Positions 241 through 15,272 of a DNA stretch of 15,272 bases are shown here, one piece after another. Both the position numbers and the translations under genes were made by a program. Source of the stretch: a virus. Position 1 is the stretch's first letter. Every line of letters begins with the position of its first letter. The notes under the pieces were generated by a model. That model searched no databases. It was not told the origin of the DNA and was given only the letters and a program-made list of their open reading frames with translations. The stretch lies in the UHGV virus genome UHGV-0202386. One strand, written 5' to 3'.

Positions 241-245
241 TGATC

Positions 246-268
246 GGTGTAGTCACTGGTGTAGTCAT
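246..268 (+). repeat. Tandem decamer GGTGTAGTCA x2 (12-bp spacing), candidate integrase arm-type sites in attL
   Basis: GGTGTAGTCAC 246-256 and GGTGTAGTCAT 258-268. A near-identical tandem pair lies at 15045-15066. Together with TTGTTCCACGTTGT (214-227 / 15013-15026) these form an imperfect direct repeat of about 60 bp just inside both ends. Confidence 0.55.
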
Positions 269-303
269 TTTTTTGCAAAATTGGGGAGCGGGGGAGAATA
301 AAC

Positions 304-3707: not shown

Positions 3708-3933
3708 TATTTACCACGAAACAATAGACCGCGCATTTCTTGCACTTTCTCACAGTGAAAACATGCTGGGAATATTGCGCATATGGCTTGAAACACTTGG
3801 CGACAATGAACGCGACAAACAAAAATCAAGAATTGCCACGGCATTAATAACGCTTCTTGAGCCTGTAATAATGGAACTGCAAGAAATAGATCTATTGCAC
3901 GACAGATATAAAGAACAGCACACCGGAGAATAA
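3700..3933 (+). CDS. Hypothetical protein (77 aa)
   Basis: ATG 3700 overlaps the upstream stop; GAGGA at 3686-3690. Unknown family. Confidence 0.5.
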   Translation: MRDIYHETIDRAFLALSHSENMLGILRIWLETLGDNERDKQKSRIATALITLLEPVIMELQEIDLLHDRYKEQHTGE

Positions 3934-3938
3934 AAATA

Positions 3939-4238
3939 ATGAAACTTAAATATTCTGGCTTAACTGCCAGTGGCAACACTCACCCTAAATTTACGCGCGG
4001 CGATATTTACCGCGACCAGTACGGCGGCACGGTAATGATTAAGGGCGTGGAAGAACGGCGCGTAACCTACCGCCGTGAAGGTTACGAATATGATTGCGTG
4101 ATGCCTGTTTATCAGTTCCGGCGTGATTTTTCTCTGGTACAGACCGCGCCGCATAACGTGTCCACCAGCAACGCCAGGGCACGGGCAAACATCCAGAAGC
4201 TGAAAACCATGATTAACGGATTCAGGGGTAAAAAATGA
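3939..4238 (+). CDS. Hypothetical protein (99 aa), possibly DUF4222-like
   Basis: Motif YRDQYGGTVMIKGVEERRVTYRREGYEYDCVMPVYQFRRDF reminds me of DUF4222 proteins of enterobacterial prophages (memory only). Stop overlaps the primase start. Confidence 0.5.
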   Translation: MKLKYSGLTASGNTHPKFTRGDIYRDQYGGTVMIKGVEERRVTYRREGYEYDCVMPVYQFRRDFSLVQTAPHNVSTSNARARANIQKLKTMINGFRGKK

Positions 4239-6049
4239 AACTGGCACCGAACGTAAAACAGCAGTCACGCGGCATAAAACACAAAGAAACAGAAGTCATT
4301 ATTTTTGCGGGTAGTGATGCCTGGTCACACGCAAAACAATGGCAGGAACATGACGCGCGTATGGCCGGAGATAATGAGCCTCCTGTGTGGCTTGGGGAGC
4401 AGCAGTTATCCGAACTGGATAAGCTGCAAATTGTGCCGGAAGGCAGAAAATCCGTGCGCATATTCAGGGCCGGATATCTTGCGCCAGTAATGATAAAGGC
4501 GATTGGTCAGAAGCTGGCGGCGGCAGGCGTACAGGATGCAAATTTTTATCCTGAGGGTATGCACGGTCAGGAGGTGCAGAACTGGCGCGAATATCTGGCC
4601 CGTGAGCGCCAGAATCTTTCTGATGGTCTGGTGATTCAGCTTCCTGTTAAGAAAAAAACAGAAGACAGCGCCGCACCACTGGCGCTTAACCAGATGGGAG
4701 CAAGCCAGCGCGGCGAAGTTCTCCTGGCACATTATGGCGGTGAACTGGCGATTCATGCCGACTCTGACACTGTTCACCATTACAACGGCGTTGTATGGGA
4801 GCCGATTCAGGATAAAGAGTTACAGCGTGCTATGGCGCAGATTTTCATTGATGCGGAGATCAGCTATTCGCAGAACGCCATTAAATCGGCGGTCGATACC
4901 ATGAAGTTAAGTTTGCCTGTAATGGGGAATACAGCCCGTAACCTGATTGGATTCAGTAACGGGGTATTTGATACCAGAACAGGTAATTTTCGGGAGCATA
5001 ACAAAAACGACTGGTTGTTAATTGCCAGTGAATTACCTTTCAGCCCACCAGCAGAGGGGGAAACGCTGGCAACACATGCGCCGAATTTCTGGAAGTGGTT
5101 ACGCTGCTCGGTGGCAGAGAATGACCGCAAGACGGATCGCGTGCTGGCTGCATTATTCATGGTGCTGGCGAACCGGTACGACTGGCAGTTATTCATTGAG
5201 GTAACAGGTCCAGGGGGAAGTGGTAAAAGCGTGATGGCGGAGATTTGCACTATGCTGGCGGGTAAGGCCAACACAGTATCGGCAAGCATGAAGGCGCTGG
5301 AAGATGCAAGGGAACGCGCGTTAGTGGTTGGCTTTTCGCTGATTATCATGCCGGATATGACCCGCTACGCTGGTGATGGCGCAGGAATTAAGGCCATTAC
5401 AGGCGGTGACAAGGTGGCAATCGACCCGAAGCATAAAGCCCCCTACTCAACACGCATTCAGGCGGTCGTGCTGGCGGTGAACAATAACGCCATGTCATTC
5501 AGTGACCGCAGCGGGGGGATCTCACGTCGTCGGGTGATATTCAATTTTTCGGAGGTTGTACCGGAGAACGAGCGCGACCCCATGCTGGCAGAAAAAATAG
5601 AAGGAGAGCTGGCGGTTGTGATTCGCCATCTGCTTACTCGTTTTTCTGACCAGGACGAAGCTAAACGCCTGCTGTATGAGCAGCAGAAATCAGAAGAAGC
5701 TCTGGTGATAAAACGCGAGGGCGATTCGCTGGTGGACTTCTGTGGCTATCTCATGTCGTCGGTAATGTGTGATGGTCTGTTAGTGGGTAATGCCGAAATT
5801 ATTCCGTTCAGTCCGCGCAGGTATCTTTATCACGCCTATCTGGCATATATGAGGGCACACGGATTCGGTAAACCTGTAACACTGACGCGCTTCGGTAAAG
5901 ATATGCCGGGGGCAATGGCGGAATATGGCAGGGAGTATATAAAACGGAAAACGAAGCACGGTTTGCGTTCAAATGTGACACTGACAGAGGATTCAGAAGA
6001 CTGGATGCCATCATGTGCATCGGTCACAAATGACGACAGCAAAAATTAA
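4235..6049 (+). CDS. Replication initiator: P4-alpha-like primase / SF3 helicase (Walker A GPGGSGKS)
   Basis: 604-aa ORF. Walker A in VTGPGGSGKSVMAE, Walker B-like LIIMPDM, sensor AVVLAVNNN. Followed directly by TGTTCACC iterons, as for P4 alpha and its ori. Confidence 0.8.
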   Translation: MKLAPNVKQQSRGIKHKETEVIIFAGSDAWSHAKQWQEHDARMAGDNEPPVWLGEQQLSELDKLQIVPEGRKSVRIFRAGYLAPVMIKAIGQKLAAAGVQDANFYPEGMHGQEVQNWREYLARERQNLSDGLVIQLPVKKKTEDSAAPLALNQMGASQRGEVLLAHYGGELAIHADSDTVHHYNGVVWEPIQDKELQRAMAQIFIDAEISYSQNAIKSAVDTMKLSLPVMGNTARNLIGFSNGVFDTRTGNFREHNKNDWLLIASELPFSPPAEGETLATHAPNFWKWLRCSVAENDRKTDRVLAALFMVLANRYDWQLFIEVTGPGGSGKSVMAEICTMLAGKANTVSASMKALEDARERALVVGFSLIIMPDMTRYAGDGAGIKAITGGDKVAIDPKHKAPYSTRIQAVVLAVNNNAMSFSDRSGGISRRRVIFNFSEVVPENERDPMLAEKIEGELAVVIRHLLTRFSDQDEAKRLLYEQQKSEEALVIKREGDSLVDFCGYLMSSVMCDGLLVGNAEIIPFSPRRYLYHAYLAYMRAHGFGKPVTLTRFGKDMPGAMAEYGREYIKRKTKHGLRSNVTLTEDSEDWMPSCASVTNDDSKN

Positions 6050-6062
6050 ACTTATGGAATAA

Positions 6063-6293
6063 CTGTTCACCACTGTTCACCCTGTTATAAATATCTTTTA
6101 TATCAGTACATTATAGGGTGAACAGTTATTTGTGAACTGTTCACCAAACTATTCACTGTTCACCTTTTTGATTATTTATTGAGCTTTAAGGGTGAACAGT
6201 GGTGAACAGTTGGTGAATAGTTTTTGTGAAACTGTTCACCCCTTAACGTTATGAATAAAAAGGGAAAATCTCAAAAGGTGAACAGGTGAAGGG
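6063..6293. repeat. Origin of replication: about 11 copies of the 9-mer CTGTTCACC (P4 type-I iteron TGTTCACC) in both orientations
   Basis: Plus-orientation copies at 6063, 6073, 6137, 6156, 6232; reverse-orientation GGTGAACAG at 6117, 6191, 6201, 6277, with variants at 6212 and 6285. AT-rich spacers. Lies immediately downstream of the primase. Confidence 0.8.
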
Positions 6294-6336
6294 TTAAAAT
6301 GCAAAAATTTTATTTTATTGCTGTGAGGTAAAGCCT

Positions 6337-6582
6337 GTGACAACGCAGCACGCAAAAAAACCACAATCTCACGCCCTTGATTTGACAGAACACTGGCTGA
6401 GGGTGGCGATAAAAATCATCGACCGCAACGCGGGAGAAGGGTACGCAAAAGCACATCCCGAACTGGTAAGCGCATTCATGACCACGGCAGCGGCAAACTT
6501 TGCCACACTGACAGAACGGGAGATTGCCGAAGCGGAACAGGTGACAACCATCAACGTTAAAACCGGAGAGCAGACAGCATGA
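6337..6582 (+). CDS. Hypothetical protein (81 aa), GTG start
   Basis: GAGG at 6325-6328, 8 nt before GTG 6337. Stop overlaps the ssb start (ATGA). Unknown family. Confidence 0.5.
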   Translation: MTTQHAKKPQSHALDLTEHWLRVAIKIIDRNAGEGYAKAHPELVSAFMTTAAANFATLTEREIAEAEQVTTINVKTGEQTA

Positions 6583-7004
6583 CAGCACAGATAGCGGCTT
6601 ACGGGCGGCTGGTGGCTGACCCGCAGTTAAAGACCACCAGCAAAGGGACACAAATGGCGATGGCGAGTATGGCGGTTCCCCTGCCGTGCAGCCAGGCAGA
6701 TGACGGAACGGCGACGATGTGGTTATCTGTCCTGGCGTTTGGCAGACAGGCCGACGCACTGGCAAAACACCACAAAGGCGAACTGGTGAGCGTGGCGGGT
6801 AACATGCAGGTGAGCCAGTGGACAGGCCAGAACGGGGAAACGCGGCAGGGCTGGCAGGTTATTGCAGACAGCGTAATCAGTGCGCGAACGGCGCGACCGG
6901 GCGGCAAAAAAGGTCAACAGGGCCAGGCCACTGACGCACTGAACAGGGCAAAACAACAGACAAGCCAGCACGATGACCCGTACGGGGATAACATACCGTT
7001 TTAA
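6579..7004 (+). CDS. ssb: Single-stranded DNA-binding protein (short SSB with conserved C-terminal ..D-N-IPF tip)
   Basis: OB-fold pattern (W..V.AFG..A..L.K...KG..V.V.G......W....G..R) and C-terminus DDPYGDNIPF resembling the SSB acidic tip DDDIPF. GGAGAG RBS. Confidence 0.8.
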   Translation: MTAQIAAYGRLVADPQLKTTSKGTQMAMASMAVPLPCSQADDGTATMWLSVLAFGRQADALAKHHKGELVSVAGNMQVSQWTGQNGETRQGWQVIADSVISARTARPGGKKGQQGQATDALNRAKQQTSQHDDPYGDNIPF

Positions 7005-7040
7005 TTCACAACAGCGAACAGAGTAATTACAGGGGAAGGC

Positions 7041-7571
7041 ATGACAACGCTGACCATTAACCGGAAGCCGAAAGGCATTTACGGCACGCCGCAGAAAACG
7101 ACGCAGGCGGCGCAAGAGCAGGATAAAACCACATCGGTGCATAAAGTGATACCCGGCAATCAGAACGCACAGCAGAAGCCCACAGGGGCGACACCGTGGC
7201 AGCATATGACCAAAAGGCAGCGCAAAAACCGCCGACGCGTTAACCGCCTCACTGAGATGTGGCCTGACTTATTCAGCCATAAAGCACCGAAGCCGCTTAA
7301 GGTGGGGATATTCGACGACCTGATGCAGGATATCGCCGTCAGGGGGCTGGCATTCGGGTCGGGGGTATTACGTGCGACGCTGGCATCCTATGCGCAGTCT
7401 CCGCGCTATTACCGCGCCCTGATAGCTGGTGGCGCACGTTACGACCTGAAGGGCCAGCCATGTGGGGAAGTGACACCACAGGAACAGCAGGAGGCAGAAA
7501 CACGGCTGATGGTGCTGAATGAGAAGCACAAGCGCCAGCGCCGGGCAGCAAAGGGGGATACATGCCAGTGA
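7041..7571 (+). CDS. ProQ/FinO-domain RNA-binding protein (FinO-like RNA chaperone)
   Basis: PKPLKVGIFDDLMQDIAVRG...LRATLASYAQSPRYYRALIAGGARYDLKGQPCGEVTPQEQQEA aligns by eye to the ProQ/FinO core (PLKIGIFQDL...[35 protein letters not shown]). Lys/Gln-rich N-terminal extension. RBS AGGGGAAGG. Confidence 0.8.
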   Translation: MTTLTINRKPKGIYGTPQKTTQAAQEQDKTTSVHKVIPGNQNAQQKPTGATPWQHMTKRQRKNRRRVNRLTEMWPDLFSHKAPKPLKVGIFDDLMQDIAVRGLAFGSGVLRATLASYAQSPRYYRALIAGGARYDLKGQPCGEVTPQEQQEAETRLMVLNEKHKRQRRAAKGDTCQ

Positions 7572-7810
7572 CATTTGAAGAAGTTCAGCAACATAAAAAG
7601 CTTCATGGTTTTGATGATCTGGAAACCACGACAGCAAAAAAATATCGTCGGTTGCTTTCTTCCGATGCGTTATTTTTTGTGGATCATCATGATTTTCTGC
7701 GTAGCTCACTGACCGGGGAAATTTTCGCAACCAACCGTGAGCAGGTGGAAGCGATGATCGAATATTTGTGGAAAATAAGACGCAGAATGCGGGAGCCAGT
7801 GAAACAATAA
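7562..7810 (+). CDS. Hypothetical protein (82 aa), last gene of the early/replication operon
   Basis: ATG 7562 overlaps the upstream stop; AGGGGGA RBS. Followed by a strong terminator. Confidence 0.5.
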   Translation: MPVTFEEVQQHKKLHGFDDLETTTAKKYRRLLSSDALFFVDHHDFLRSSLTGEIFATNREQVEAMIEYLWKIRRRMREPVKQ

Positions 7811-7820
7811 AGCGATAAAG

Positions 7821-7847
7821 GCCCGGATTTTTTCCGGGTCTTTTTTC
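7821..7847 (+). terminator. Rho-independent terminator ending the early/replication operon
   Basis: GCCCGGA-TTTTT-TCCGGGTC hairpin (7821-7840) followed by TTTTTT (7841-7847). Confidence 0.8.
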
Positions 7848-7864
7848 AGGTTTTGTAAATTATT

Positions 7865-7890
7865 TGTTCGTGGTTGTTCCAGGTTGTTCG
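7865..7890 (+). repeat. Three TTGTTC motifs exactly 10 bp apart, upstream of the capsid operon
   Basis: TTGTTC at 7865, 7875, 7885 (TTGTTCGTGG / TTGTTCCAGG / TTGTTCGGTG). Same motif family as the arrays at 131-240, 1555-1620 and 15001-15030. Confidence 0.6.
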
Positions 7891-7980
7891 GTGATTCTGG
7901 TTGATGTTTACATACTGATTTTTATGTATATGTTGGCGTGTGGCACTCAGACGTGAGCCGCCACAATGCCGCCTGATCCC

Positions 7981-8013
7981 CTGCGCGATGCCGGGTTGAT
8001 CTGCGAGATGCCG
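7981..8013 (+). promoter_or_regulatory. Pair of 13-bp direct repeats CTGCG(C/A)GATGCCG 20 bp apart, candidate activator sites of the late (capsid) promoter
   Basis: Copies at 7981-7993 and 8001-8013, 12 of 13 identical, 70-100 bp upstream of the capsid start. No good sigma-70 -35/-10 nearby, which fits an activator-dependent promoter. Confidence 0.35.
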
Positions 8014-8083
8014 AGAGTGTCGGGCGGCGCTCCCCCCGTGTTGGTTTCACGTCCTGAATCTTAACCAATGCGAGAAAACCTTC

Positions 8084-9229
8084 ATGAAGAAATTAATCGA
8101 ACTCCGCCAGCAAAAAACCGCCCTGAAAAACCAGATGCGATCCCTGCTGGAAAAAGCCGACAGTGAAAACCGCAGTCTAACCGATGACGAAGGCAAACAG
8201 TTTGATGAACTGCGTGCAAAAGCCGATTCCCTCGACACAGAAATTTCCCGCCTCGAGTCTGTGGCTGATGAAGAACGTAACCAGCCTGGTGTTCCCGTCG
8301 AAGATAAAATCACCAAAAATGAGCTACGCTCTTACATTCTGACCGGGGAAACCCGCAACCTGTCCGGCAGTGTTCCGGCTGATGGTGGTTATACGGTTAT
8401 CCCGGAACTGAACAGAGAAATTATGCGTCAGCTTTCTGATGAGTCGGTGATGCGTAAAATCTGTACTGTTAAAACCATTCACAGTAATGAATTTAAGCAA
8501 CTGGTTTCTGCCGGGGGTGCGGTCGTGGGACACGGCGAAGAAGGTGCGGCACGTAACCAGACGGCAACCCCAAAACTGAATGAAGTCAGTATCCGCCTGT
8601 ATCCGATCTACGCTTACCCGAAAACCACTCAGGAAATTATCGATTTTTCCGAAGTCGATATTATGGGCTGGTTATCTTCTGAAATTGGCGACACTTTCGT
8701 TGATACCGAAGAAACGGATCTGGTTTCCGGTGATGGCGAGAAAAAAGCCAAAGGTTTCCTGACTTTCCCGCGCGCTACGGATAATGACAAAACCCGTCCT
8801 TTCGGTACGCTCCAGACGAAAAAAGTGACTGGCAGTCTCAGCGCCGATATGCTGATTGACCTGAAATTTACGCTGCGCAATAAGTACCGCAAAAAAGCTG
8901 TATGGGTGATGAACTCAAATACAGCCGCCTCCGCACAAAAACTGAAAAATGCCACTGGTGATTACATCTGGCGCGATCGTTTACAGGCTGGTGATCCTGA
9001 TTCTCTGCTGGGGCTTCCGGTTGAATATCTGGAATTTATGCCGGACGGTGTGATTGCAGTCGGTGACTTTAAGCGCGGTTATTTCATCGTTGACCATAAA
9101 ACCGGTACGCGTACCCGTCCGGATTTCAGCGAGCCTGGATTCATTAACATCTATACCCAGAAATATCTGGGCGGTGGTGTGGTGGATTCGAACGCCATCA
9201 AGATTCTGGAAATTCAGGCTGGCAAGTAA
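8084..9229 (+). CDS. HK97-family major capsid protein with N-terminal coiled-coil delta/scaffold domain
   Basis: 381 aa. N-terminal about 70 aa is charged coiled-coil (ELRQQKTALKNQMRSLLEKADSENRSL..). C-terminal motifs LLGLPVEYLEFMP..GDFKRGYFIVDHKTG...YLGGGVVDSNAIKILE are typical of Phage_capsid (HK97 fold). Confidence 0.85.
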   Translation: MKKLIELRQQKTALKNQMRSLLEKADSENRSLTDDEGKQFDELRAKADSLDTEISRLESVADEERNQPGVPVEDKITKNELRSYILTGETRNLSGSVPADGGYTVIPELNREIMRQLSDESVMRKICTVKTIHSNEFKQLVSAGGAVVGHGEEGAARNQTATPKLNEVSIRLYPIYAYPKTTQEIIDFSEVDIMGWLSSEIGDTFVDTEETDLVSGDGEKKAKGFLTFPRATDNDKTRPFGTLQTKKVTGSLSADMLIDLKFTLRNKYRKKAVWVMNSNTAASAQKLKNATGDYIWRDRLQAGDPDSLLGLPVEYLEFMPDGVIAVGDFKRGYFIVDHKTGTRTRPDFSEPGFINIYTQKYLGGGVVDSNAIKILEIQAGK

Positions 9230-9278
9230 TGAGCAAAGGGGGCTTCGGCCTCCTTTTTCAGCTTTATGGAGTACACCG

Positions 9279-9839
9279 ATGAAAAACACCGATTTTGAAA
9301 TCCGTACATCTGAACTGACCGCCAGCGATAAAAAACTGGTGGGTTATGCCGTTCGCTGGAACAGCCTTTCAGAAATTATCTGGGACGAGTTTCGCGAACA
9401 GTTCACGCCGGGGGCTTTTGCTGACTATCTGGCGGCGGGTAATGATGTGCGCTGTCTGTATGAGCATGACTATACCCAACTGCTGGGGCGTACCAAATCC
9501 GGCTCACTGGTACTGACTGAGGATAACACCGGGCTACGTTTTGAACTGACACCGCCAAATACCCAGCTTGGAAAAGATGTGCTTACGCTGGTGGAACGTG
9601 GCGATATTACAGGAATGAGCTTTGGCTTTCGCGCATTATGCGAGGAGTGGAATATCGCGCAAAAACCGTATCTGCGTACTGTAACCGCCGCAGAACTCCG
9701 TGAAATCACGATAACATCGATGCCTGCTTATCCCGAATCCGGCGTGGAGATTGCCCACCGTTCGTTGTTTGCACAGTACCCTGAATTACGCCCGGCAGGA
9801 AATAATCGTCATCGCTGGGCTGAACTGGCGGGGTTGTGA
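9279..9839 (+). CDS. HK97-family prohead (maturation) protease
   Basis: MKNTDFEIR...LVGYAVRWN...FTPGAFADYL...VRCLYEHD..QLLGRTKSGSLVLTEDNTGLRFE...GKDVLTLVERGDITGMSFGF matches the Peptidase_S78/U35 prohead-protease pattern. GGAG RBS at 9268-9271. Confidence 0.85.
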   Translation: MKNTDFEIRTSELTASDKKLVGYAVRWNSLSEIIWDEFREQFTPGAFADYLAAGNDVRCLYEHDYTQLLGRTKSGSLVLTEDNTGLRFELTPPNTQLGKDVLTLVERGDITGMSFGFRALCEEWNIAQKPYLRTVTAAELREITITSMPAYPESGVEIAHRSLFAQYPELRPAGNNRHRWAELAGL

Positions 9840-9840
9840 T

Positions 9841-11055
9841 ATGTGGTGGCCTTTTAGTCGTAAAAAAAGCGATCTGCGTAACCTGTCCATTGATGATTTT
9901 CTGGCGTTGTCTGGTGTACCAAATACCGGATCCGGAGAATATGTTTCTGCCGGGACGGCTGAATCATTGCCTGCTGTGATGAACGCGGTTTCTGTCATCG
10001 CTGAGGCGGTGGCCACGATGCCGTGTTACCTGTATCTGGTACGCAATGATAAGGGCAGAGAGGCGCGGGAATGGCTGGACAGTCACCCGGTAGATATTCT
10101 GCTGAATGAGCAGCCTAATTCGTGCCTGACACCTTACCAGTTTAAACGCACAATGATGCGTCACTGCCTGCTGAACGGTAACGCCTATGCGGTTATTGAG
10201 TGGGGGCGGGACGGGCAGCCAAAATCACTTCATCCTTATGCGCCGGGGTGTGTTGTACCGGAACGCACAGGCACACACAAATACCGCTATACCATCACCG
10301 AACCCTGTACAGGAACGGTGCGCACGTATTTACAGGAAGAAGTTCTGCATCTCCGCTATGCCTCGGATGATGGCTTTCTGGGGCGTTCCCCCGTCACGAT
10401 TTGCCGTGAGGCGCTGGGGCTTGGCCTTGCTCAACAGCGCCACGGAGCCAGCATTATGAAAGATGGCATGATGGCGGCAGGGATTATCACGTCAGGTGAA
10501 TGGCTGGACGGCGTGAAAGGTAAACAGGCATTAGACGCACTGGAACGCTACAAGGGGGCGAAAAATGCCGGAAAAACGCCAATCCTTGAAGGGGGCATGG
10601 ATTACAGGCAGCTGGGGATGAGTAACCAGGATGCGGAATGGCTGGCCTCCCGTCGCTTCTCCATTGAAGACATCGCCAGGATGTTCAACGTGTCGCCGAT
10701 TTTTCTTCAGGAATACAGCAACAGCACCTACAGCAATTTCAGTGAGGCGAGCCGCGCATTTCTGACCATGACAATGCGCCCGTGGCTGGCGAACTTCGAA
10801 CAGCAAATCAAGGCCGCTTTGCTGGTGACTTCTCCCGTACCTGGTACCCGTTATCTGGTTGAGTTTGATTCAGCCGATTTACTGCGCGCCACACCCACCG
10901 AACGTTATGCCACGTATGAGAAAGGGATTAAGAGCGGGATCATGAATCCGAACGAAGCTCGCGAACGCGAGGGTATGCCGCCGCGTGAAGGTGGTGATGA
11001 GTTCAGCCAGGCATGGAAACAGACTGTGGAAATTAAAGGGAGAAAAGATGAGTGA
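9841..11055 (+). CDS. HK97-family portal protein
   Basis: 404 aa from ATG 9841, 1 nt after the protease stop. Long conserved portal-like core (NAYAVIEWGRDGQP..., SIMKDGMMAAGIITSGEWLDG..., FLTMTMRPWLANFEQQIKAALL). Position and size fit a portal. Confidence 0.8.
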   Translation: MWWPFSRKKSDLRNLSIDDFLALSGVPNTGSGEYVSAGTAESLPAVMNAVSVIAEAVATMPCYLYLVRNDKGREAREWLDSHPVDILLNEQPNSCLTPYQFKRTMMRHCLLNGNAYAVIEWGRDGQPKSLHPYAPGCVVPERTGTHKYRYTITEPCTGTVRTYLQEEVLHLRYASDDGFLGRSPVTICREALGLGLAQQRHGASIMKDGMMAAGIITSGEWLDGVKGKQALDALERYKGAKNAGKTPILEGGMDYRQLGMSNQDAEWLASRRFSIEDIARMFNVSPIFLQEYSNSTYSNFSEASRAFLTMTMRPWLANFEQQIKAALLVTSPVPGTRYLVEFDSADLLRATPTERYATYEKGIKSGIMNPNEAREREGMPPREGGDEFSQAWKQTVEIKGRKDE

Positions 11056-11350
11056 AGCCAGAATTACACCTGATGAAGTCAGGGCACATCTTCGACTTGA
11101 TGATGATTTATCCGGTGAAGGCGAACTTCTGAAAATGTATACCGATGCGGCGCTGGAAGCCTGCCAGAAGCATATCGGGAAACGTTTTGAAGACGGGCTG
11201 GAATTTACCCCGGCAATGCGTGTTGGTTGCCTGATGTACATCGCTTTCCTGTACGAGAACCGGGAAGCGGTTTCACCAGTGGAGCAGTCTGAACTGCCTA
11301 TGGCTATTTCTGCGCTCTGGTCAGTTTATCGTGATGTAGGGGTGTACTGA
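11048..11350 (+). CDS. gp6-like head-tail connector (head completion/adaptor) protein
   Basis: 100 aa. MSEARITPDEVRAHLRLDDDLSGEGELLKMYTDAALEACQKHIGKRF matches the Phage_connect_1 N-terminal pattern (..HLRID.D.D...I......AA). Start overlaps the portal stop. Confidence 0.7.
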   Translation: MSEARITPDEVRAHLRLDDDLSGEGELLKMYTDAALEACQKHIGKRFEDGLEFTPAMRVGCLMYIAFLYENREAVSPVEQSELPMAISALWSVYRDVGVY

Positions 11351-11790
11351 TGCCGTGGCAACCATTAAGGCGATGCACTGAGCCGGGCTGTAATAAGCGC
11401 GTGAAGTCCGGCAAGTGTGAAGAGCACAGGCGGGCTGTATGGCGTGCAGAGGATGCCAGACGGGGACACCGCCGCGCGCGCGGGTATTCCCGACAGTGGG
11501 ACAAATACCGCGCCCTGTACCTGAGCAAAAACCCGTTATGCGTGCGTTGTCTGGCTAAGGGGATTTATACGCCAGCTCTTGTGGTGGATCACATCATCCC
11601 CATCAATGGCGGCGGTGATGTTCTCTTCTGGCCTGAGTGGAACCACCAGGCATTGTGCCAGACGTGCCACAACCGTAAGACGACACGGGAAGATCCAGCC
11701 ACGAAAGCGAACCGTAAGGCGGGCATGTATCGCGAGCAGGAAGAACGGGCAGCACACCGTAACGACTGGATGTATGGCGATGATGACTGA
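11350..11790 (+). CDS. Phage HNH endonuclease (terminase-associated)
   Basis: Cys-rich zinc finger (CTEPGCNKRVKSGKCEEH ... CVRC ... CQTCHNRKT) with VVDHIIPINGGGD..WNHQALC HNH core. Located immediately upstream of terS/terL, as in HK97-like cos phages. ATG overlaps the upstream stop (TGATG). Confidence 0.8.
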   Translation: MPWQPLRRCTEPGCNKRVKSGKCEEHRRAVWRAEDARRGHRRARGYSRQWDKYRALYLSKNPLCVRCLAKGIYTPALVVDHIIPINGGGDVLFWPEWNHQALCQTCHNRKTTREDPATKANRKAGMYREQEERAAHRNDWMYGDDD

Positions 11791-11959
11791 ACAGGAGCAA
11801 ACCAGGCTGATACGTGGACTGATAAGGCAGCGTGACTTATGGAAGACACAGGAGACAGGGCACAAAGCCAACAGGACAGGGCGCACAAAACGCACCACAG
11901 CGAAGCGATTAACCGACCGTGACCGCGAGGCCATGGAATGTTTTCGCAATCGCTGGTGA
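11780..11959 (+). CDS. Doubtful small basic ORF (about 59 aa) overlapping the HNH stop; may instead be non-coding cos DNA
   Basis: ATG-ATG at 11780/11783, no clear RBS. Arg/Lys/Thr-rich low-complexity translation. Confidence 0.2.
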   Translation: MMTEQEQTRLIRGLIRQRDLWKTQETGHKANRTGRTKRTTAKRLTDRDREAMECFRNRW

Positions 11960-12078
11960 GGCCGTCAGAGGGGGTGGGGGTGGTTTTCAGGACGAAACCG
12001 TCCCTGCCGGACACCGACCGCCTCCTCAAATTTTTGTGCACGGGAATTTTTTTGAAAATAATTGGGCGAAAAAAGAAC
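11791..12078 (+). other. Candidate cos/packaging-recognition region between HNH and terS, containing a G-rich tract
   Basis: 288-bp gap without a convincing gene. GGGGGTGGGGGTGG at 11970-11983 followed by a CAGGACG-AAAC-CGTCCCTG hairpin. Location argument: in HK97-like phages cos lies between the HNH gene and terS. Confidence 0.3.
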
Positions 12079-12435
12079 ATGGCAAGACCACCAAAAGCCC
12101 CCGCTTACCTGGATGAAATCGCGGTCAGGCAGTGGAAGGAAAAATCGCGCCAGCTTTCCGGACGGGAAGACCTTACCCCCGCCGACTGGAGCAATCTGGA
12201 GCTGTATTGTGTTAACTACTCCATATACCGCAAAGCCGTCGAAGACCTTGCCACGCGCGGGTTCAGCATTGTTAACAGTCAGGGCAGCGAGAGCAGAAAC
12301 CCCGCCCTGAGCGCAAAGGCTGACGCTGAAAGAATAATGATCAAAATGGCTTCTTTGCTGGGTTTTGACCCGGTAAGTCGCCGCAGAAATCCACCGGAAA
12401 CAGAGGAAGAGGACGAGCTTGACCGCCTGGCATGA
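12079..12435 (+). CDS. terS: Terminase small subunit, P27 family
   Basis: MARPPKAPAYLDEIAVRQWKEK...LELYCVNYSIYRKAVEDL...GSESRNPALSAKADAERIMIKMASLLGFDPVSRRR matches the P27-family TerS pattern. The ORF-track N-terminal extension (from 11938) has no support. Confidence 0.75.
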   Translation: MARPPKAPAYLDEIAVRQWKEKSRQLSGREDLTPADWSNLELYCVNYSIYRKAVEDLATRGFSIVNSQGSESRNPALSAKADAERIMIKMASLLGFDPVSRRRNPPETEEEDELDRLA

Positions 12436-14080
12436 GTACGCAGAAGGCGTAAAAAACGGCAAAATTACGGCCTGTAAACGACTGAAACAGGCCGTTAAAC
12501 GGTATTTTTCTGACCTTGAAAACCCCCTTTACACGTTCGATCCGGAGGTCGTGGAGCGGTTTATTGCCTTTTCCAGGGTGTGTCCGCACGTAAAAGGCGC
12601 AATGCGCGGTAGCCCCATTGAGCTGGAGCCGTGGCAGCAGTTCGCCTTTGCGTGCATCCTGGGCTTTAAGGTTAAGGCCACCGGACGGCGCAAATACACC
12701 AGCGCATTCATTGAAGTGCCGCGAAAAAATGCCAAATCCACGGTCGCCGCTATCCTGGCTAACTGGTTTCTGGTTATGGAAAACGGGCAGCAGGATATTT
12801 ACACCGCCGCTGTGAGTCGTGATCAGGCGCGGATCGTGTTTGATGATGCGCGTCAGATGTGCCTTTTATCCCGACCGTTACGAAAGCGGGTAAATATTCA
12901 GGCACACAAGGTGATACACCCGAAAACCAACAGCCTGTTAAAGCCACTGGCAGCAAAAGCGGCAACCATTGAAGGTACAAACCCGAGTCTTGCCATTGTG
13001 GATGAATATCACCTGCACCCTGACAACGGGGTTTATTCCGCGCTTGAACTGGGAATGGGGGCGCGTCCGGAGGGGCTGTTATTTGCCATCACCACATCGG
13101 GGAGCAACGTTGTTTCAGCCTGTAAACAACACTATGACTATTGCTGCCAGATACTGGATGGTGAAGAGGTGAACGAATCCATGTTCGTGCTGATTTACGA
13201 GCTGGATGATGAAAGCGAGGTTGACGATCCGGCGATGTGGATAAAGGCGAATCCCAATATCGATGTTTCCGTCGATCGTGAAAAACTGGCCTCAACCATC
13301 CAGAAAGCGCGGGGTATTCCGTCGCAGTGGGTGGAAATGCTCACCAAGCGATTCAATATCTGGTGTCAGGGGGCTACGCCGTGGATGGGTAACGGTGCAT
13401 GGGCGGAGTGCGCCGGAACGTTCGCGGAGGCGGATTTATACGGTCAGGAGTGCTACGCGGGGCTGGACTTATCATCAACCAGCGATATTTCCAGCGTGTG
13501 CTATGCCTTTCCGGTCGGTAAAAAGATTATGCTGGTTTCCCGTCACTATCTGCCGGAATTTCAGCTACAGAACCCCGCCAATAAAAACCGCGCCATCTAT
13601 CGCCAGTGGGTAAAGGCGGGCTGGATACGCACAACACCGGGTGACTGCATTGATTATGACCGTATCCGTGATGACATCATGGCGGATGCAGAGAATTTCA
13701 ATATCAGGCTGGTGGGCTTCGATACATGGAACGCCACGCACCTGAGGACGCAGCTACAGGGGGCAGGATTTGAGGTGGAGCCGTTCCCGCAAACATACCT
13801 TCGTTTCAGTCCGGCGGCGAAATCGTTCGAAGTTTTTGTTAACCGGAAGGTGATTGTGCATCGTGGCGATCCGGTGCTGGCCTGGTCAATGAGTAATGTT
13901 GTGATGCAGAGTGACGCGAACGCCAATATCAAGCCGAACAAGAAAAAATCATCCAACAAGATAGACCCGAGCGTTGCGGCTCTGATGGCGTTTGGCACAT
14001 TCCAGGCAGAACATGAGGAATTTGCATTTGATATAAGCGACAGCCACAAAGAGCGGCTTGCGGCGTTTGATGGGGTATGA
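12419..14080 (+). CDS. terL: Terminase large subunit (Terminase_1-like ATPase/nuclease); apparent TTG start overlapping terS by 17 nt
   Basis: 553 aa. Size, position after terS and a conserved-looking N-terminal region (PWQQFAFACILGFKV..., DIYTAAVSRDQARIVFDDAR). No in-frame ATG until codon 62; GAGGA at 12408-12412 precedes TTG 12419. Confidence 0.85.
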   Translation: MTAWHEYAEGVKNGKITACKRLKQAVKRYFSDLENPLYTFDPEVVERFIAFSRVCPHVKGAMRGSPIELEPWQQFAFACILGFKVKATGRRKYTSAFIEVPRKNAKSTVAAILANWFLVMENGQQDIYTAAVSRDQARIVFDDARQMCLLSRPLRKRVNIQAHKVIHPKTNSLLKPLAAKAATIEGTNPSLAIVDEYHLHPDNGVYSALELGMGARPEGLLFAITTSGSNVVSACKQHYDYCCQILDGEEVNESMFVLIYELDDESEVDDPAMWIKANPNIDVSVDREKLASTIQKARGIPSQWVEMLTKRFNIWCQGATPWMGNGAWAECAGTFAEADLYGQECYAGLDLSSTSDISSVCYAFPVGKKIMLVSRHYLPEFQLQNPANKNRAIYRQWVKAGWIRTTPGDCIDYDRIRDDIMADAENFNIRLVGFDTWNATHLRTQLQGAGFEVEPFPQTYLRFSPAAKSFEVFVNRKVIVHRGDPVLAWSMSNVVMQSDANANIKPNKKKSSNKIDPSVAALMAFGTFQAEHEEFAFDISDSHKERLAAFDGV

Positions 14081-14370
14081 CGAGAATGAGCGAAACCGAA
14101 CTACTAAAAATAATCCGTCGCGTTACCGGAATCAGCCAGGAAGCAGGCAAACAGGAGGCCACGCAGCCGGACAGCGTGATAGCCGAAAATTACGCGCGTG
14201 TGGTGGCTGAGGTGATGCGCCGTGACGGTATCGAGCTTAACGGCGTGGATATACGCAATATACGCACCAGAGTTCTGGAGTTGTTGTCATATCGTCGCCG
14301 CGTGGAGATGTACCAGGAGAAAGAAAAAATTACTTACCACTGGAAGAAGCCGGAGCGGTTACGACGTTAA
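14077..14370 (+). CDS. Hypothetical protein (97 aa) translationally coupled to terL
   Basis: ATG 14077 overlaps the terL stop (ATGA). Alternative ATG at 14086. Unknown family. Confidence 0.5.
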   Translation: MTRMSETELLKIIRRVTGISQEAGKQEATQPDSVIAENYARVVAEVMRRDGIELNGVDIRNIRTRVLELLSYRRRVEMYQEKEKITYHWKKPERLRR

Positions 14371-14376
14371 CTTGTG

Positions 14377-14426
14377 GTGACATACCGTGACGGAGAGTGA
14401 CAACCAGTGACACACAGTGACAAAAA
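14377..14426 (+). repeat. Five GTGAC(A) motifs at exactly 10-bp spacing (one face of the helix)
   Basis: GTGAC starts at 14377, 14387, 14397, 14407, 14417 (GTGACATACC / GTGACGGAGA / GTGACAACCA / GTGACACACA / GTGACAAAAA). Begins 7 bp after the last stop codon. Confidence 0.7.
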
Positions 14427-14445
14427 GACGGTATTTAAATAGAGT

Positions 14446-14472
14446 GGGTGTTTAATACCCCCCGTTTTTTTT
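14446..14472 (+). terminator. Weak candidate terminator of the late operon (short stem then T8)
   Basis: GGGTG..TACCC stem (about 5 bp), then CCCG and TTTTTTTT at 14465-14472. A larger GGTATT/AATACC stem (14430-14435 / 14454-14459) encloses it. Stem is weak and separated from the T-run. Confidence 0.35.
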
Positions 14473-14483
14473 CGTGTGGTGCA

Positions 14484-14498
14484 TGGTCAAAATGACCA
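14484..14498. promoter_or_regulatory. Perfect 6-3-6 palindrome TGGTCA-AAA-TGACCA (operator-like)
   Basis: Read directly; typical geometry for a dimeric HTH-protein binding site. Confidence 0.45.
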
Positions 14499-14624
14499 CG
14501 GAGAAGATACGCACCGAAGCAGAACAATTACCGTAGGTTAAAGCGACAGTATTCACACCAGCAACCTGATTATCAATTTTCAGCCGTTCGGTGGCATCAC
14601 TGGCCCCATTTTCCTGATGGGGTT

Positions 14625-14676
14625 GCGGGTTATTTGGGGGGGATTTGCGGGTTATTTTGAATGTCTCGCGGGTTAC
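14625..14676 (+). repeat. Three direct copies of GCGGGTTA at 22-bp spacing
   Basis: Copies at 14625-14632, 14647-14654, 14669-14676, preceded by a CCCCAT/ATGGGG hairpin (14604-14622). Confidence 0.6.
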
Positions 14677-14752
14677 GCTTTGGCTAATATTCAAACGCAT
14701 CATTTTTTAACCCATTGATATTAAATAATAAAAAACACTTAGCAAGCGAAGA

Positions 14753-14777
14753 TAACCCGCTAACCCGCATAACCCGC
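14753..14777 (-). repeat. Three tandem copies of TAACCCGC (reverse complement of GCGGGTTA) at 8-9 bp spacing
   Basis: 14753-14760, 14761-14768, 14770-14777. Forms an inverted arrangement with the 14625-14676 array around a 76-bp AT-rich centre (14677-14752). Confidence 0.6.
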
Positions 14778-14785
14778 ACTGTTTT

Positions 14786-14799
14786 GTATATATATATAC
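14786..14799. repeat. 14-bp alternating palindrome GTATATATATATAC
   Basis: Read directly; immediately follows the TAACCCGC repeats. Confidence 0.6.
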
Positions 14800-15000
14800 G
14801 AAAAATTGCATTCAGGAGGTGGGATCGAAATCCCTACAACCCATTGCTTATGGGACTGCCCGCCCCGTCAAATTTTTACACCCGCGAAAAATACTTCAAG
14901 CTGGTGGGCATGATGCCGATATGGGGATCCCCATGTCGACATTAACGCCCCTCATGAATTGGCGTGCTTCCCCCTGGAAAGATGACCCGCCTGTATATTT

Positions 15001-15066
15001 CTTGTGTCTATTTGTTCCACGTTGTTTCATACAGTGCACCGAACGGTGTAGTTACTGGTGTAGTCA
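15001..15066 (+). repeat. Right-arm copy of the terminal repeat: 3 phased TTGT motifs, TTGTTCCACGTTGT, and tandem GGTGTAGTTA/GGTGTAGTCA
   Basis: TTGT at 15002, 15012, 15022. TTGTTCCACGTTGT 15013-15026 is identical to 214-227. GGTGTAGTTACTGGTGTAGTCAT 15045-15067 versus left GGTGTAGTCACTGGTGTAGTCAT 246-268. Confidence 0.6.
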
Positions 15067-15133
15067 TTTTGCGATTTTTAAAGTTATCTAAGATATTATT
15101 TGTCATTTAAATTCAATTGGTTATGAGTACTTG

Positions 15134-15149
15134 ATTATAAATAGCGGAT
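15134..15149. repeat. attR core: right copy of the 16-bp junction repeat (ATTATAAATAGCGGAT)
   Basis: 15 of 16 identical to 102-117. comM sequence resumes in frame from here. Confidence 0.65.
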
Positions 15150-15272
15150 ATGAATATCCGGCGAAAAAAATCACCATCAATCTGGCTCCAGCCGATCTGC
15201 CAAAAGAAGGGGGACGATATGATTTACCTATCGCCATTGCGTTGCTGGCGGCCTCAGAACAGCTTACAGCCA
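15140..15272 (+). pseudogene. comM: comM/yifB continuation (3' part, runs off the window), separated from its 5' end by the island
   Basis: In-frame translation [44 protein letters not shown] continues the ComM N-terminal domain begun at 1-116. The frame is closed upstream by TAA 15089-15091, with no ATG or RBS before the junction. Confidence 0.8.

What the first reader, a model, noticed from the sequence alone, without database searches (positions are those of the whole stretch)
14430..15000. ORF-free, repeat-dense block of about 570 bp before attR with inverted GCGGGTTA arrays around an AT-rich centre
No credible ORF on either strand; the only one in the track is low-complexity and lacks an RBS. 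The block holds a T8 terminator-like site, a perfect TGGTCA-N3-TGACCA palindrome, three GCGGGTTA at 22-bp phase, a 76-bp AT-rich stretch, three tandem TAACCCGC in inverted orientation, and a GTATATATATATAC palindrome. This layout resembles a second origin or a tightly regulated promoter or non-coding RNA locus. It sits where satellites often carry accessory cargo, but here the cargo appears to be non-coding.
Basis: seen in the sequence. Interest (0 to 1): 0.7.

Follow-up and report, generated by a model that had tools for sequence, protein, structure and literature searches.

The report
Orphan replication-origin unit beside satellite cos site
The gene-free block at the right end of this phage satellite is a string of DNA signals: a terminator, a spare replication-origin unit built for an initiator protein this element no longer encodes, and a phage-type packaging (cos) site; all are known kinds, but the mismatched, displaced origin unit is a mildly new twist.

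Summary
All six GCGGGTTA copies in the 15.3-kb window lie in 14625-14777 (0.56 expected by chance), around a 30%-GC centre.

The window is a capsid-forming PICI (cf-PICI), a phage satellite, inserted in yifB/comM. The block is neither cargo nor an RNA locus. It is the satellite's cis-acting right end:
- a terminator at 14446-14472;
- an origin-type unit at 14625-14799;
- integrase arm sites, starting at about 15010.

The iteron unit is 76-85% identical to the second half of the origin that directly follows the DUF927 rep gene in EcCIEDL933-type and classical E. coli PICIs. In 11 related elements its iterons match those next to that element's own rep. Two iteron types (GCGGGTTA and TGTCCCA) track a swapped Rep C-terminal domain.

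Here the resident initiator is P4 alpha-like, with its own origin of TGTTCACC iterons at 6064-6284. A recent exchange of the rep module therefore left this unit orphaned. Older mismatched elements show a decaying unit.

"Second origin" is right by homology. It is probably not right for this element's own replication. Novelty is modest.

The parts
14377..14426 (+). Five GTGAC repeats at exact 10-bp phase, directly after the stop codon of orf97 (14077-14370). Function unknown. Lies just outside the finding.
   Evidence: family D1. Four copies are conserved in the same position in the classical PICI L018.
14446..14472 (+). Terminator-like hairpin (GGGTGT-TTA-ATACCC) followed by CCCG and T8. Probable end of the packaging operon.
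   Evidence: The hairpin is conserved in L018, but there it lacks the T-run.
14484..14498 (.). Perfect palindrome TGGTCA-AAA-TGACCA. Function unknown.
   Evidence: A TGGTCA-TAA-TGACCA version occurs in the right end of the EcCIEDL933-type element L004.
14579..14934 (+). A cassette holding the origin unit plus cos. It is shared as one block with the right ends of other E. coli PICIs at other integration sites.
   Evidence: The blastn boundaries are the same against L006 and L007. 160 of 5426 complete E. coli genomes cover at least 80% of 14600-14900.
14625..14675 (+). Three direct GCGGGTTA iterons spaced 22 and 21 bp (two helical turns).
   Evidence: They are 98-100% conserved in diverged terminal units, where the spacers are only 73-89% conserved.
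14676..14752 (.). AT-rich centre (30% GC), a candidate unwinding element. It contains an IHF-consensus match, TATCAATGGGTTA, at 14708-14720 on the minus strand.
   Evidence: In alignment A1 the sequence varies but the composition and the IHF-like site are kept.
14753..14777 (-). Three tightly tandem inverted iterons (TAACCCGC, spaced 8 and 9 bp).
14786..14799 (.). GTATATATATATAC palindrome that closes the origin unit. Homology to the rep-proximal origin of other PICIs ends just after it, at GAAAAATTG.
14817..14893 (+). Phage-type (phiP27/ST64B) cos site. TGCCCGCCCC at 14857-14866 aligns with the 10-nt cos-site annotated in phiP27. It is followed by the widely conserved GTCAAATTTTTACACCCGCGAAA.
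   Evidence: The 20-mer occurs in 41 IMG/VR contigs; in the phage-sized ones it lies just upstream of terS.
14913..14942 (.). Palindrome ATGCCGATATGGGGA/TCCCCATGTCGACAT at the start of the right-end segment shared with EcCIEDL933-type elements. Function unknown.
   Evidence: (I6).
15010..15070 (+). Integrase arm-type repeats: TTGTTCCACGTTGT, and GGTGTAGTTACTGGTGTAGTCATTTT at 15044-15070. The latter is mirrored at the left end, 245-271.
15141..15150 (+). attR core AATAGCGGAT. The attL copy is at 109-118. The yifB coding sequence resumes here.
6064..6284 (.). The element's own origin: nine TGTTCACC iterons (the P4 'ori type 1 repeat') in both orientations around AT-rich DNA, directly 3' of the P4 alpha-like rep gene (4235-6049).
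11960..12060 (+). Internal cos-like site in the canonical hnh-cos-terS position (...CCGGACACCGACCGCCTCCTCAAATTTTTGTGCACGGGAATTT...). Probably the cf-PICI's own packaging site.
   Evidence: It is conserved in L004 and L008. The linear record of the cf-PICI-like 'phage' vB_KppS-Ant ends inside this spacer.

Best explanation
The block is the non-coding, cis-acting right end of a capsid-forming PICI (cf-PICI), a phage satellite. Read left to right it contains:
1. a terminator that closes the capsid/packaging operon;
2. an origin-type unit: three spaced direct GCGGGTTA iterons, a 77-bp AT-rich centre with an IHF-like site, three tight inverted iterons and a (TA)n palindrome;
3. a phage phiP27/ST64B-type cos site;
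4. integrase arm sites and attR.

Shown. The iteron unit is homologous to the distal half of the replication origin used by the DUF927-family PICI initiators whose variable C-terminal ~105 residues go with GCGGGTTA iterons. In sister elements that keep this Rep, the origin is split. One unit sits next to rep. This unit sits 2-8 kb away, next to cos.

Shown. The window is a recombinant. Its rep-origin module is the one found in an L017-like cf-PICI, whereas sister L003, 99.5% identical from 6546 onward, carries a DUF927 rep there. The module here encodes a P4 alpha-like helicase/initiator with TGTTCACC iterons at 6064-6284.

Inferred. In matched elements Rep pairs the two units, as phage P4 alpha protein does with crr and ori. 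In this window no cognate Rep is made, so the unit is an orphan. It should be silent for the element's own replication. It could bind Rep or fire only if a co-resident PICI supplies the GCGGGTTA-specific Rep in trans.

Inferred. The terminal cos is a helper-phage-type site inherited with the same cassette. The cf-PICI's own terminase most likely uses the internal cos at about 12.0 kb.
For: Element identity. Integrase, P4 alpha-like Rep, SSB, ProQ/FinO-domain protein, capsid, protease, portal, adaptor, HNH, P27-family TerS and TerL are all present. This is the published Proteobacterial cf-PICI gene order, morphogenesis genes first and then hnh-terS-terL.

Homology to an origin.
- Window 14644-14808 matches the intergenic block directly after the DUF927 rep gene: 76% identity to L004 9001-9153 (an EcCIEDL933-like element of O157:H7) and 85% to L005 9001-9165.

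Co-variation.
- The terminal unit carries the same iteron as the rep-proximal unit in L003, L006, L007/L020, L008/L019, L032, L037, L038, L045 and L050 (GCGGGTTA), and in L009 and L011 (TGTCCCA).
- The Reps of L003 and L009 are about 97% identical over residues 1-600 and unrelated over the last ~105 residues.

Selection. Among terminal units the iterons are 98-100% conserved, the AT centre 66-86%.

Mismatch and decay.
- The resident Rep is 49% identical to P4 alpha residues 313-776. Its nine TGTTCACC iterons are the repeat that the P4 record annotates as 'ori type 1 repeat'.
- The window is 98.7% identical to L017 over 3928-14375 and 99.5% identical to L003 over 6546-15272.
- L043 has a different D5-like Rep with TCTACC iterons; one of its six terminal iterons is mutated.
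- L026 has a RepA-type helicase with AGTGGGGA iterons; two of its three direct copies are mutated and two of its three inverted copies are lost.

cos.
- 89% identity to the region around the annotated phiP27 cos-site, and 92% to the end of the ST64B record.
- The core 20-mer is conserved in phage contigs just upstream of terS.
Against: - No experiment shows that the distal unit binds Rep or fires in any element.
- Co-variation rests on only two iteron classes, so in effect on one switch event.
- Three independent lineages keep the unit without the cognate Rep. That could mean it has a Rep-independent role, for example DNA bending or accessory function beside cos.
- The unit in this window is fully intact (6 of 6 iterons). 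This is equally compatible with a recent swap and with continued use.
- I could not determine whether strains carrying this element also carry a PICI with the matching Rep.
- Which of the two cos-like sites is actually cut is inferred from position and similarity only.
Confidence: 0.75

Rival explanations
1. Trans-acting use. The unit is not a relic but is kept because it exploits other satellites. When a co-resident PICI makes the GCGGGTTA-specific Rep, this element is replicated from the unit as well (piracy of another satellite's initiator). Alternatively the six iterons titrate that Rep and so handicap the competitor, acting as an incompatibility locus.
For: - The unit is intact: 6 of 6 iterons, the AT-rich centre and the IHF-like site.
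- The same unit is retained next to three unrelated Rep types.
- The GCGGGTTA-type rep plus proximal unit is present in 252 of 5426 complete E. coli genomes, and many strains hold several PICI-like loci.
Against: - The unit decays in the older mismatched elements L026 and L043, which argues against sustained selection without the cognate Rep.
- The window-type swap is so recent (98.7-99.5% identity to both parents) that intactness carries no information.
- Co-residence was not demonstrated.
Confidence: 0.12
2. The iteron arrays belong to the packaging signal. They would be cosB- or cosQ-like binding sites for the small terminase or HNH protein beside cosN, with IHF bending the AT-rich centre as at lambda cosB.
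For: - The unit directly abuts the cos site.
- The ACCCGC core of the iteron also occurs in the conserved cos-right motif ACACCCGCGAAA.
- An IHF consensus lies between inverted repeats, as in lambda cosB (the lambda layout is summarised in PMC6739421).
Against: - The homologous unit lies next to rep and far from any cos in L004 and L005.
- Its iterons change with the Rep C-terminal domain while the adjacent cos stays about 85% identical (window against L009).
- L009 encodes no terminase at all.
- The same cos occurs without any unit in L010 and L018, and in all the phage contigs examined.
- In L008 the terminal cos has decayed to 69% identity while the iterons are 48/48 intact.
Confidence: 0.05
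3. A working second origin of this element, fired by its own P4 alpha-like Rep or by host factors alone.
For: It has full origin architecture and a very unstable AT-rich centre, comparable to the element's main origin.
Against: - The resident Rep's C-terminal half is homologous to P4 alpha, and its cognate TGTTCACC iteron is absent from the block.
- L017, the cf-PICI with the same Rep, has no such unit.
Confidence: 0.05
4. A regulated promoter or a structured non-coding RNA locus.
For: - Tight iterons next to a TA-rich palindrome resemble Rep-autoregulated promoters of iteron plasmids.
- In the rep-proximal context the unit lies just upstream of the next gene's ribosome-binding site.
Against: - No Rfam family matches.
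- 0 of 42 predicted pairs show compensatory change; the pairs are simply the inverted iterons.
- No + strand promoter-like site is called there.
- Downstream of the unit in this window there is no gene, only cos and att.
Confidence: 0.03

Closest known systems
E. coli PICI replication origins (EcCICFT073 / EcCIEDL933 type; Fillol-Salom et al. 2018, PMC6092414)
   Same: - Two opposed sets of iterons flank an AT-rich region.
- There is direct sequence homology (76-85%) to the second half of the origin that follows the DUF927 rep gene, including the terminal (TA)n palindrome.
   Different: - The unit is not next to a rep gene. It lies 8.3 kb downstream of the resident rep, beside cos and attR.
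- Its iterons are not those of the resident Rep.
- In the described origins the units lie together, immediately 3' of rep.
Satellite phage P4 bipartite origin (crr next to the alpha gene, plus ori 4.7 kb away)
   Same: - In a satellite, one initiator-specific iteron occurs in two separated clusters, one of them directly after the initiator gene.
- Sister elements of this window (L003, L006, L009) have exactly that layout.
- The window's own Rep is a P4 alpha homologue that uses the P4 iteron TGTTCACC.
   Different: - In this window the distal cluster carries a different iteron from the resident Rep's cluster, so the P4-like pairing cannot occur in cis.
- The DUF927 Rep is a different protein family from alpha.
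- That crr is required in cis for P4 replication is my recollection of the P4 literature plus the record's annotation. It was not tested here.
cos sites of phiP27 / ST64B / HK97-like HNH-dependent phages, and helper-type cos sites carried by classical PICIs
   Same: - 89-92% identity to phiP27 and ST64B over the core.
- Window TGCCCGCCCC aligns with the annotated 10-nt phiP27 cos-site (CGCCCGCCCC).
- The flanking GTCAAATTTTTACACCCGCG is the same.
- The same cassette ends classical PICIs that have no terminase (L006, L009, L010).
   Different: - In phages the site lies between hnh and terS. Here it lies after terL-orf97, and a second, diverged cos-like site occupies the canonical place.
- Two cos sites in one PICI have a precedent in EcCICFT073 cos1/cos2 (PMC6092414).
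Auxiliary iteron loci of plasmids (P1 incA; R6K alpha/beta origins that depend on gamma)
   Same: A second iteron cluster lies at a distance from the main origin and is bound by the same initiator. In those systems it acts through initiator-mediated pairing. This comparison rests on my own knowledge, not on a test here.
   Different: - This unit has its own AT-rich centre and IHF-like site, unlike a pure titration locus such as incA.
- There is no sequence relationship.
- It sits in a phage satellite, not a plasmid.

Membership tests
[quoted passage not shown] | Two opposed sets of short iterons flank an AT-rich, easily melted region | tested here: met
   3 direct and 3 inverted GCGGGTTA around a 77-bp, 30%-GC centre. 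The centre is the fifth least stable 70-bp stretch of the window.
[quoted passage not shown] | Sequence homology to a recognised PICI origin region | tested here: met
   76-85% identity to the block directly after the DUF927 rep gene in L004 (EcCIEDL933-like) and L005.
[quoted passage not shown] | Located immediately 3' of the element's rep gene | tested here: not met
   rep ends at 6049 and is followed by its own origin at 6064-6284. The block lies at 14625-14799, after terL-orf97.
[quoted passage not shown] | Iterons are those recognised by the element's own initiator | tested here: not met
   The resident Rep is P4 alpha-like, with nine TGTTCACC directly after its gene and none in the block. 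GCGGGTTA occurs nowhere else in the window. Binding itself was not assayed.
[quoted passage not shown] | Supports Rep-dependent replication | not testable with these tools
   Needs a plasmid-maintenance or copy-number assay with the DUF927 Rep and with the resident Rep.
P4-type bipartite origin (crr + ori) | Two separated clusters of the same initiator-specific iteron in one element | tested here: not met
   Not met in this window, where the two clusters carry different iterons. Met in sister elements L003, L006, L009 and L011 and in five IMG/VR loci.
P4-type bipartite origin (crr + ori) | Both clusters are required in cis for replication | not testable with these tools
   Needs deletion of the distal unit in a matched element.
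phiP27/HK97-type cohesive-end (cos) site | Sequence match to a cos site annotated or mapped in a phage | tested here: met
   14828-14889 is 89% identical to phiP27 21777-21838, which holds the annotated cos-site. 14853-14892 is 92% identical to the end of the ST64B record.
phiP27/HK97-type cohesive-end (cos) site | Lies between hnh and terS, just upstream of terS | tested here: not met
   The terminal site follows terL-orf97. A diverged cos-like site at 11960-12060 holds the canonical position. In phage contigs the motif lies just upstream of the terS ATG.
phiP27/HK97-type cohesive-end (cos) site | Cleaved by terminase/HNH to give cohesive ends | not testable with these tools
   Needs end-mapping of packaged DNA.
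Terminase-binding repeats (lambda cosB R-site type) | Repeats travel and co-vary with the terminase/cos specificity | tested here: not met
   The repeats co-vary with the Rep C-terminus, occur away from cos in L004 and L005, and are absent from phages and PICIs that have the same cos.
Structured non-coding RNA | Match to a curated family, or base pairs supported by compensatory change | tested here: not met
   No Rfam match in the block at E <= 1. 0 of 42 predicted pairs have double changes in a 6-sequence alignment.

The most novel reading that the evidence does not exclude
DUF927-Rep PICIs use a split origin. Its distal unit is deliberately placed beside cos, so the accessory and packaging genes sit between the two origin halves. 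Because that unit travels with the cos/packaging cassette during module shuffling, recombinant satellites like this one carry a landing pad for another satellite's initiator. That would allow one satellite to be replicated by, or to titrate the Rep of, a co-resident satellite: competition or piracy between satellites at the level of replication.
Probability: 0.15. Interest if true: 0.65.

Novelty: new variant of a known kind. Interest (0 to 1): 0.4.

Why it matters
- Annotation. The long gene-free right ends of E. coli PICIs can be read as defined modules: terminator, distal origin unit, helper-type cos, att arms. They need not be taken for cargo or hypothetical genes. One RefSeq 'hypothetical protein' here is just translated iterons.
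- Biology. A lineage of PICIs appears to have a split, P4-like origin whose distal half lies next to the packaging site and co-varies with the initiator's C-terminal domain.
- Evolution. Module exchange produces satellites with mismatched origin units and two cos sites. This gives natural material for asking how satellite replication specificity evolves. It also raises the question of whether co-resident satellites cross-activate or interfere with each other.
- Engineering. For PICI-based delivery vehicles, it flags cis elements that should be kept or removed on purpose.

Tried and rejected
- Rfam scan of the whole window at E <= 1. The only hits were spurious miRNA-model matches to the long hairpin of the main origin at 6090-6270. 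No tRNA or tmRNA was found.
- Consensus RNA folding of six homologous units. The predicted pairs are just the inverted iterons, with no compensatory change. The ncRNA reading was rejected.
- The 83-aa minus-strand ORF (annotated in RefSeq in a sister element) and two + strand ORFs. They are not conserved, and the ORF's N-terminus is translated iterons. Rejected as genes.
- Terminase-binding (cosB-like) reading of the iterons. Rejected on context and co-variation; see the rival explanations.
- Whether orf97, just upstream, is an Rpp-type packaging redirector that might bind the GTGAC repeats. It has no significant relative among solved structures (best E = 0.13). Its PHROG family has unknown function. 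Left open.
- Exact 19-mer scan of one genome per species. This gave only one relevant locus (E. albertii, L011) and five chance hits, so diversity outside Escherichia could not be sampled that way.
- Search for a third iteron class with a matching terminal unit, by two IMG/VR scans. None was found. The scans yielded more GCGGGTTA units, two further mismatched elements, and phage cos sites without units.
- Plasmid hits to 14916-15080. One was traced (H39) and is the att-arm segment of an EcCIEDL933-type cf-PICI in a 'plasmid' record that also holds chromosomal genes. H37 and H38 were not inspected. Not relevant to the finding.
- Co-residence of a GCGGGTTA-type Rep in the five complete genomes that carry the window-type element. 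This could not be read from the capped hit lists.

Full report
**Context**

The window is one mobile element inserted in yifB/comM.
- The att core AATAGCGGAT lies at 109-118 and 15141-15150. YifB coding sequence flanks both ends.
- The genes are: integrase 304-1533, primase/helicase-type Rep 4235-6049, SSB, a ProQ/FinO-domain protein, major capsid, prohead protease, portal, head-tail adaptor, HNH 11350-11790, P27-family TerS, TerL 12419-14080, and a 97-aa protein of unknown function at 14077-14370.
- This is the published gene content and order of the Proteobacterial capsid-forming PICIs (cf-PICIs): capsid-protease-portal-connectors, then hnh-terS-terL (bioRxiv 10.1101/2022.09.08.507074).
- The finding covers most of the roughly 775 bp between the last gene and attR.

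**Observation**

- The six GCGGGTTA copies are the only ones in the window, against 0.56 expected; 0 of 200 shuffles reached six.
- The centre between the arrays is 30% GC. It is the fifth least stable 70-bp stretch of the window, on a par with the flanks of the element's main origin.
- The only ORF of note, 83 aa on the minus strand, is annotated as a hypothetical protein in a sister genome. It starts with translated iterons and is not conserved.

**What the iteron unit is**

Searches of complete E. coli genomes split the block into separable pieces.
- Window 14644-14808 is 76% identical to the intergenic DNA directly after the DUF927 rep gene of an EcCIEDL933-like cf-PICI of O157:H7. It is 85% identical to the same position in a classical PICI. 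That position is where E. coli PICI origins lie.
[quoted passage not shown] Function of the rep-ori segment was shown for EcCICFT073 (PMC6092414).
- In those elements the origin has two such units in tandem, and the window's unit corresponds to the second. Homology ends exactly after GTATATATATATACGAAAAATTG.

**Split origins and co-variation**

In other elements only the first unit follows rep. The second sits at the right end, fused to the same cos sequence, 2.3 to 8.2 kb away.

Wherever both could be seen, the terminal unit carried the same iteron as the rep-proximal unit:
- GCGGGTTA in L003, L006, L007/L020, L008/L019 and five IMG/VR contigs;
- TGTCCCA in an ETEC strain (L009) and in E. albertii (L011).

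The Reps of the two classes are about 97% identical for 600 residues and unrelated in the last ~105 residues. That region is the likely iteron-reading domain.

The adjacent cos stays about 85% identical across the iteron switch. Among terminal units the iterons are 98-100% conserved while the AT centre is 66-86% conserved. An IHF-consensus site in the centre is kept.

Together this ties the unit to the initiator, not to the terminase.

**Why it is an orphan here**

- The window's Rep is 49% identical to residues 313-776 of phage P4 alpha protein.
- It is followed by nine TGTTCACC iterons at 6064-6284. This is the repeat annotated as 'ori type 1 repeat' in the P4 record, where it forms two clusters: crr right after alpha, and ori 4.7 kb away.
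- The window is a mosaic. It is 98.7% identical to a cf-PICI with this Rep (L017) over 3928-14375. It is 99.5% identical to a yifB cf-PICI with the DUF927 Rep (L003) over 6546-15272.
- L017 has neither the unit nor the terminal cos.
- So the window combines the L017-type rep-origin module with the L003-type right end. That leaves a GCGGGTTA unit without its Rep.
- The same recombinant occurs in five complete genomes and two IMG/VR contigs.
- Two other, older mismatches exist, and their units are decaying. L043 has a TCTACC-type Rep and one mutated iteron. L026 has a RepA helicase with AGTGGGGA iterons; two of its three direct copies are mutated and two inverted copies are lost.
- That pattern fits maintenance by the cognate Rep and drift without it.

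**The cos site**

- Window 14828-14889 is 89% identical to phiP27 DNA around its annotated 10-nt cos-site (CGCCCGCCCC). The window has TGCCCGCCCC at 14857-14866. It is also 92% identical to the end of the ST64B record.
- The core GTCAAATTTTTACRCCCGCG recurs in 41 IMG/VR contigs. Most are phage-sized. There it lies just upstream of the terS start and has no iteron unit before it.
- The same cassette ends classical PICIs that encode no terminase, as expected for a helper-type cos.
- The cf-PICI also has a diverged cos-like site in the canonical hnh-terS spacer at 11960-12060. It is conserved in EcCIEDL933-type elements that lack the terminal site.
- The linear record of a 16.5-kb cf-PICI-like 'phage' ends within that spacer. 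This is weak support that it is the site actually cut.
- In a cf-PICI embedded in a prophage terL gene (L008/L019), the terminal cos has drifted to 69% identity while the iterons are all intact. This again separates the two functions and suggests the terminal cos is dispensable for a cf-PICI.

**Mechanism**

Shown: the homology, the position, the co-variation, the mismatch and the mosaic origin of the window.

Inferred:
- In matched elements the DUF927 Rep binds both units and pairs them, as P4 alpha does with crr and ori.
- In this element the unit is inactive unless a co-resident PICI supplies the matching Rep.
- The element's own terminase uses the internal cos.

**Rivals**

The rivals are a cosB-like terminase array, a self-used second origin, a promoter or ncRNA, and an actively exploited trans-acting site. 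They are weighed in the rival-explanations section. Only the trans-acting reading retains appreciable probability.

**Verdict**

The 'second origin' reading is right by homology but not for this element's own Rep. The promoter, ncRNA and cargo readings are not supported.

The parts are known kinds: a PICI origin unit, a phage-type cos and att arms. What is new is the displaced, cos-adjacent origin half that co-varies with Rep, and its orphaned state in this recombinant. I found no description of this in the PICI papers I read. I rate it a new variant of a known kind, of moderate interest.

Noticed in passing
window 6064-6284 (and rep 4235-6049): The element's main origin has nine TGTTCACC iterons, the same octamer annotated as 'ori type 1 repeat' in phage P4. 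The Rep aligns to P4 alpha residues 313-776 (49% identity) but lacks alpha's N-terminal part. So this cf-PICI carries a P4-type initiator/origin module.
   Followed up: partly
window 11960-12060: A second cos-like site lies in the hnh-terS spacer (...CCGACCGCCTCCTCAAATTTTTGTGCACGGGAATTT...). It is conserved in EcCIEDL933-type elements, so the element has two cos-like sites 2.8 kb apart.
   Followed up: partly
window 14377-14426: Five GTGAC repeats at exact 10-bp phase lie between the orf97 stop codon and the terminator hairpin. Four copies occur at the same place in a classical PICI (L018 16868-16905). The binding partner is unknown.
   Followed up: partly
window 14484-14498; L004 17843-17857: The perfect palindrome TGGTCA-N3-TGACCA is conserved in the otherwise different right end of an EcCIEDL933-type element. 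It may be a protein-binding site.
   Followed up: no
L019 1208-3631 and L008 8001-9174: A cf-PICI is inserted inside the terL gene of an HK97-like prophage: the TerL N-terminal part lies to its left and the C-terminal part to its right. This is a helper-embedded arrangement. Its terminal cos has decayed, but its origin unit is intact.
   Followed up: partly
L022 (LR881103.1, 'Escherichia phage vB_KppS-Ant', 16,548 bp): This deposited 'phage' has cf-PICI gene content (integrase, primase with TGTTCACC iterons after it, capsid, protease, portal, HNH, TerS, TerL). It also has a 2.3-kb gene annotated as tape measure protein. The linear record begins and ends in the hnh-terS spacer.
   Followed up: partly
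L057 (CP088587.1, 32.5-kb 'plasmid'): This record is labelled a plasmid but holds an EcCIEDL933-type cf-PICI next to chromosomal genes (mdtJI, mlc). It is probably a misassembled or excised chromosomal segment.
   Followed up: partly
window 14452-14703 (minus strand); L003 15573-15824: The RefSeq hypothetical protein WP_028120178.1 (83 aa) overlaps the iterons. Its N-terminus (..VTRETFKITRK..) is the iterons read in frame, so the gene call is probably spurious.
   Followed up: yes
window 245-271 and 15044-15070; also 211-239 and 15010-15030: Direct repeats GGTGTAGTYACTGGTGTAGTCATTTT and TTGTTCCACGTTGT lie at both ends of the element. These are probably integrase arm-type sites, and they explain why 14916-15156 is shared with PICIs at other integration sites.
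   Followed up: partly
L026 12580-12740; L043 11230-11372: These are terminal origin units in elements with unrelated initiators (a RepA helicase with AGTGGGGA iterons; a D5-like Rep with TCTACC iterons). They show stepwise loss of GCGGGTTA copies.
   Followed up: partly
window 7041-7571: A ProQ/FinO-domain protein is encoded next to SSB in this and several related PICIs. An RNA chaperone-type protein in a satellite was not examined further.
   Followed up: no
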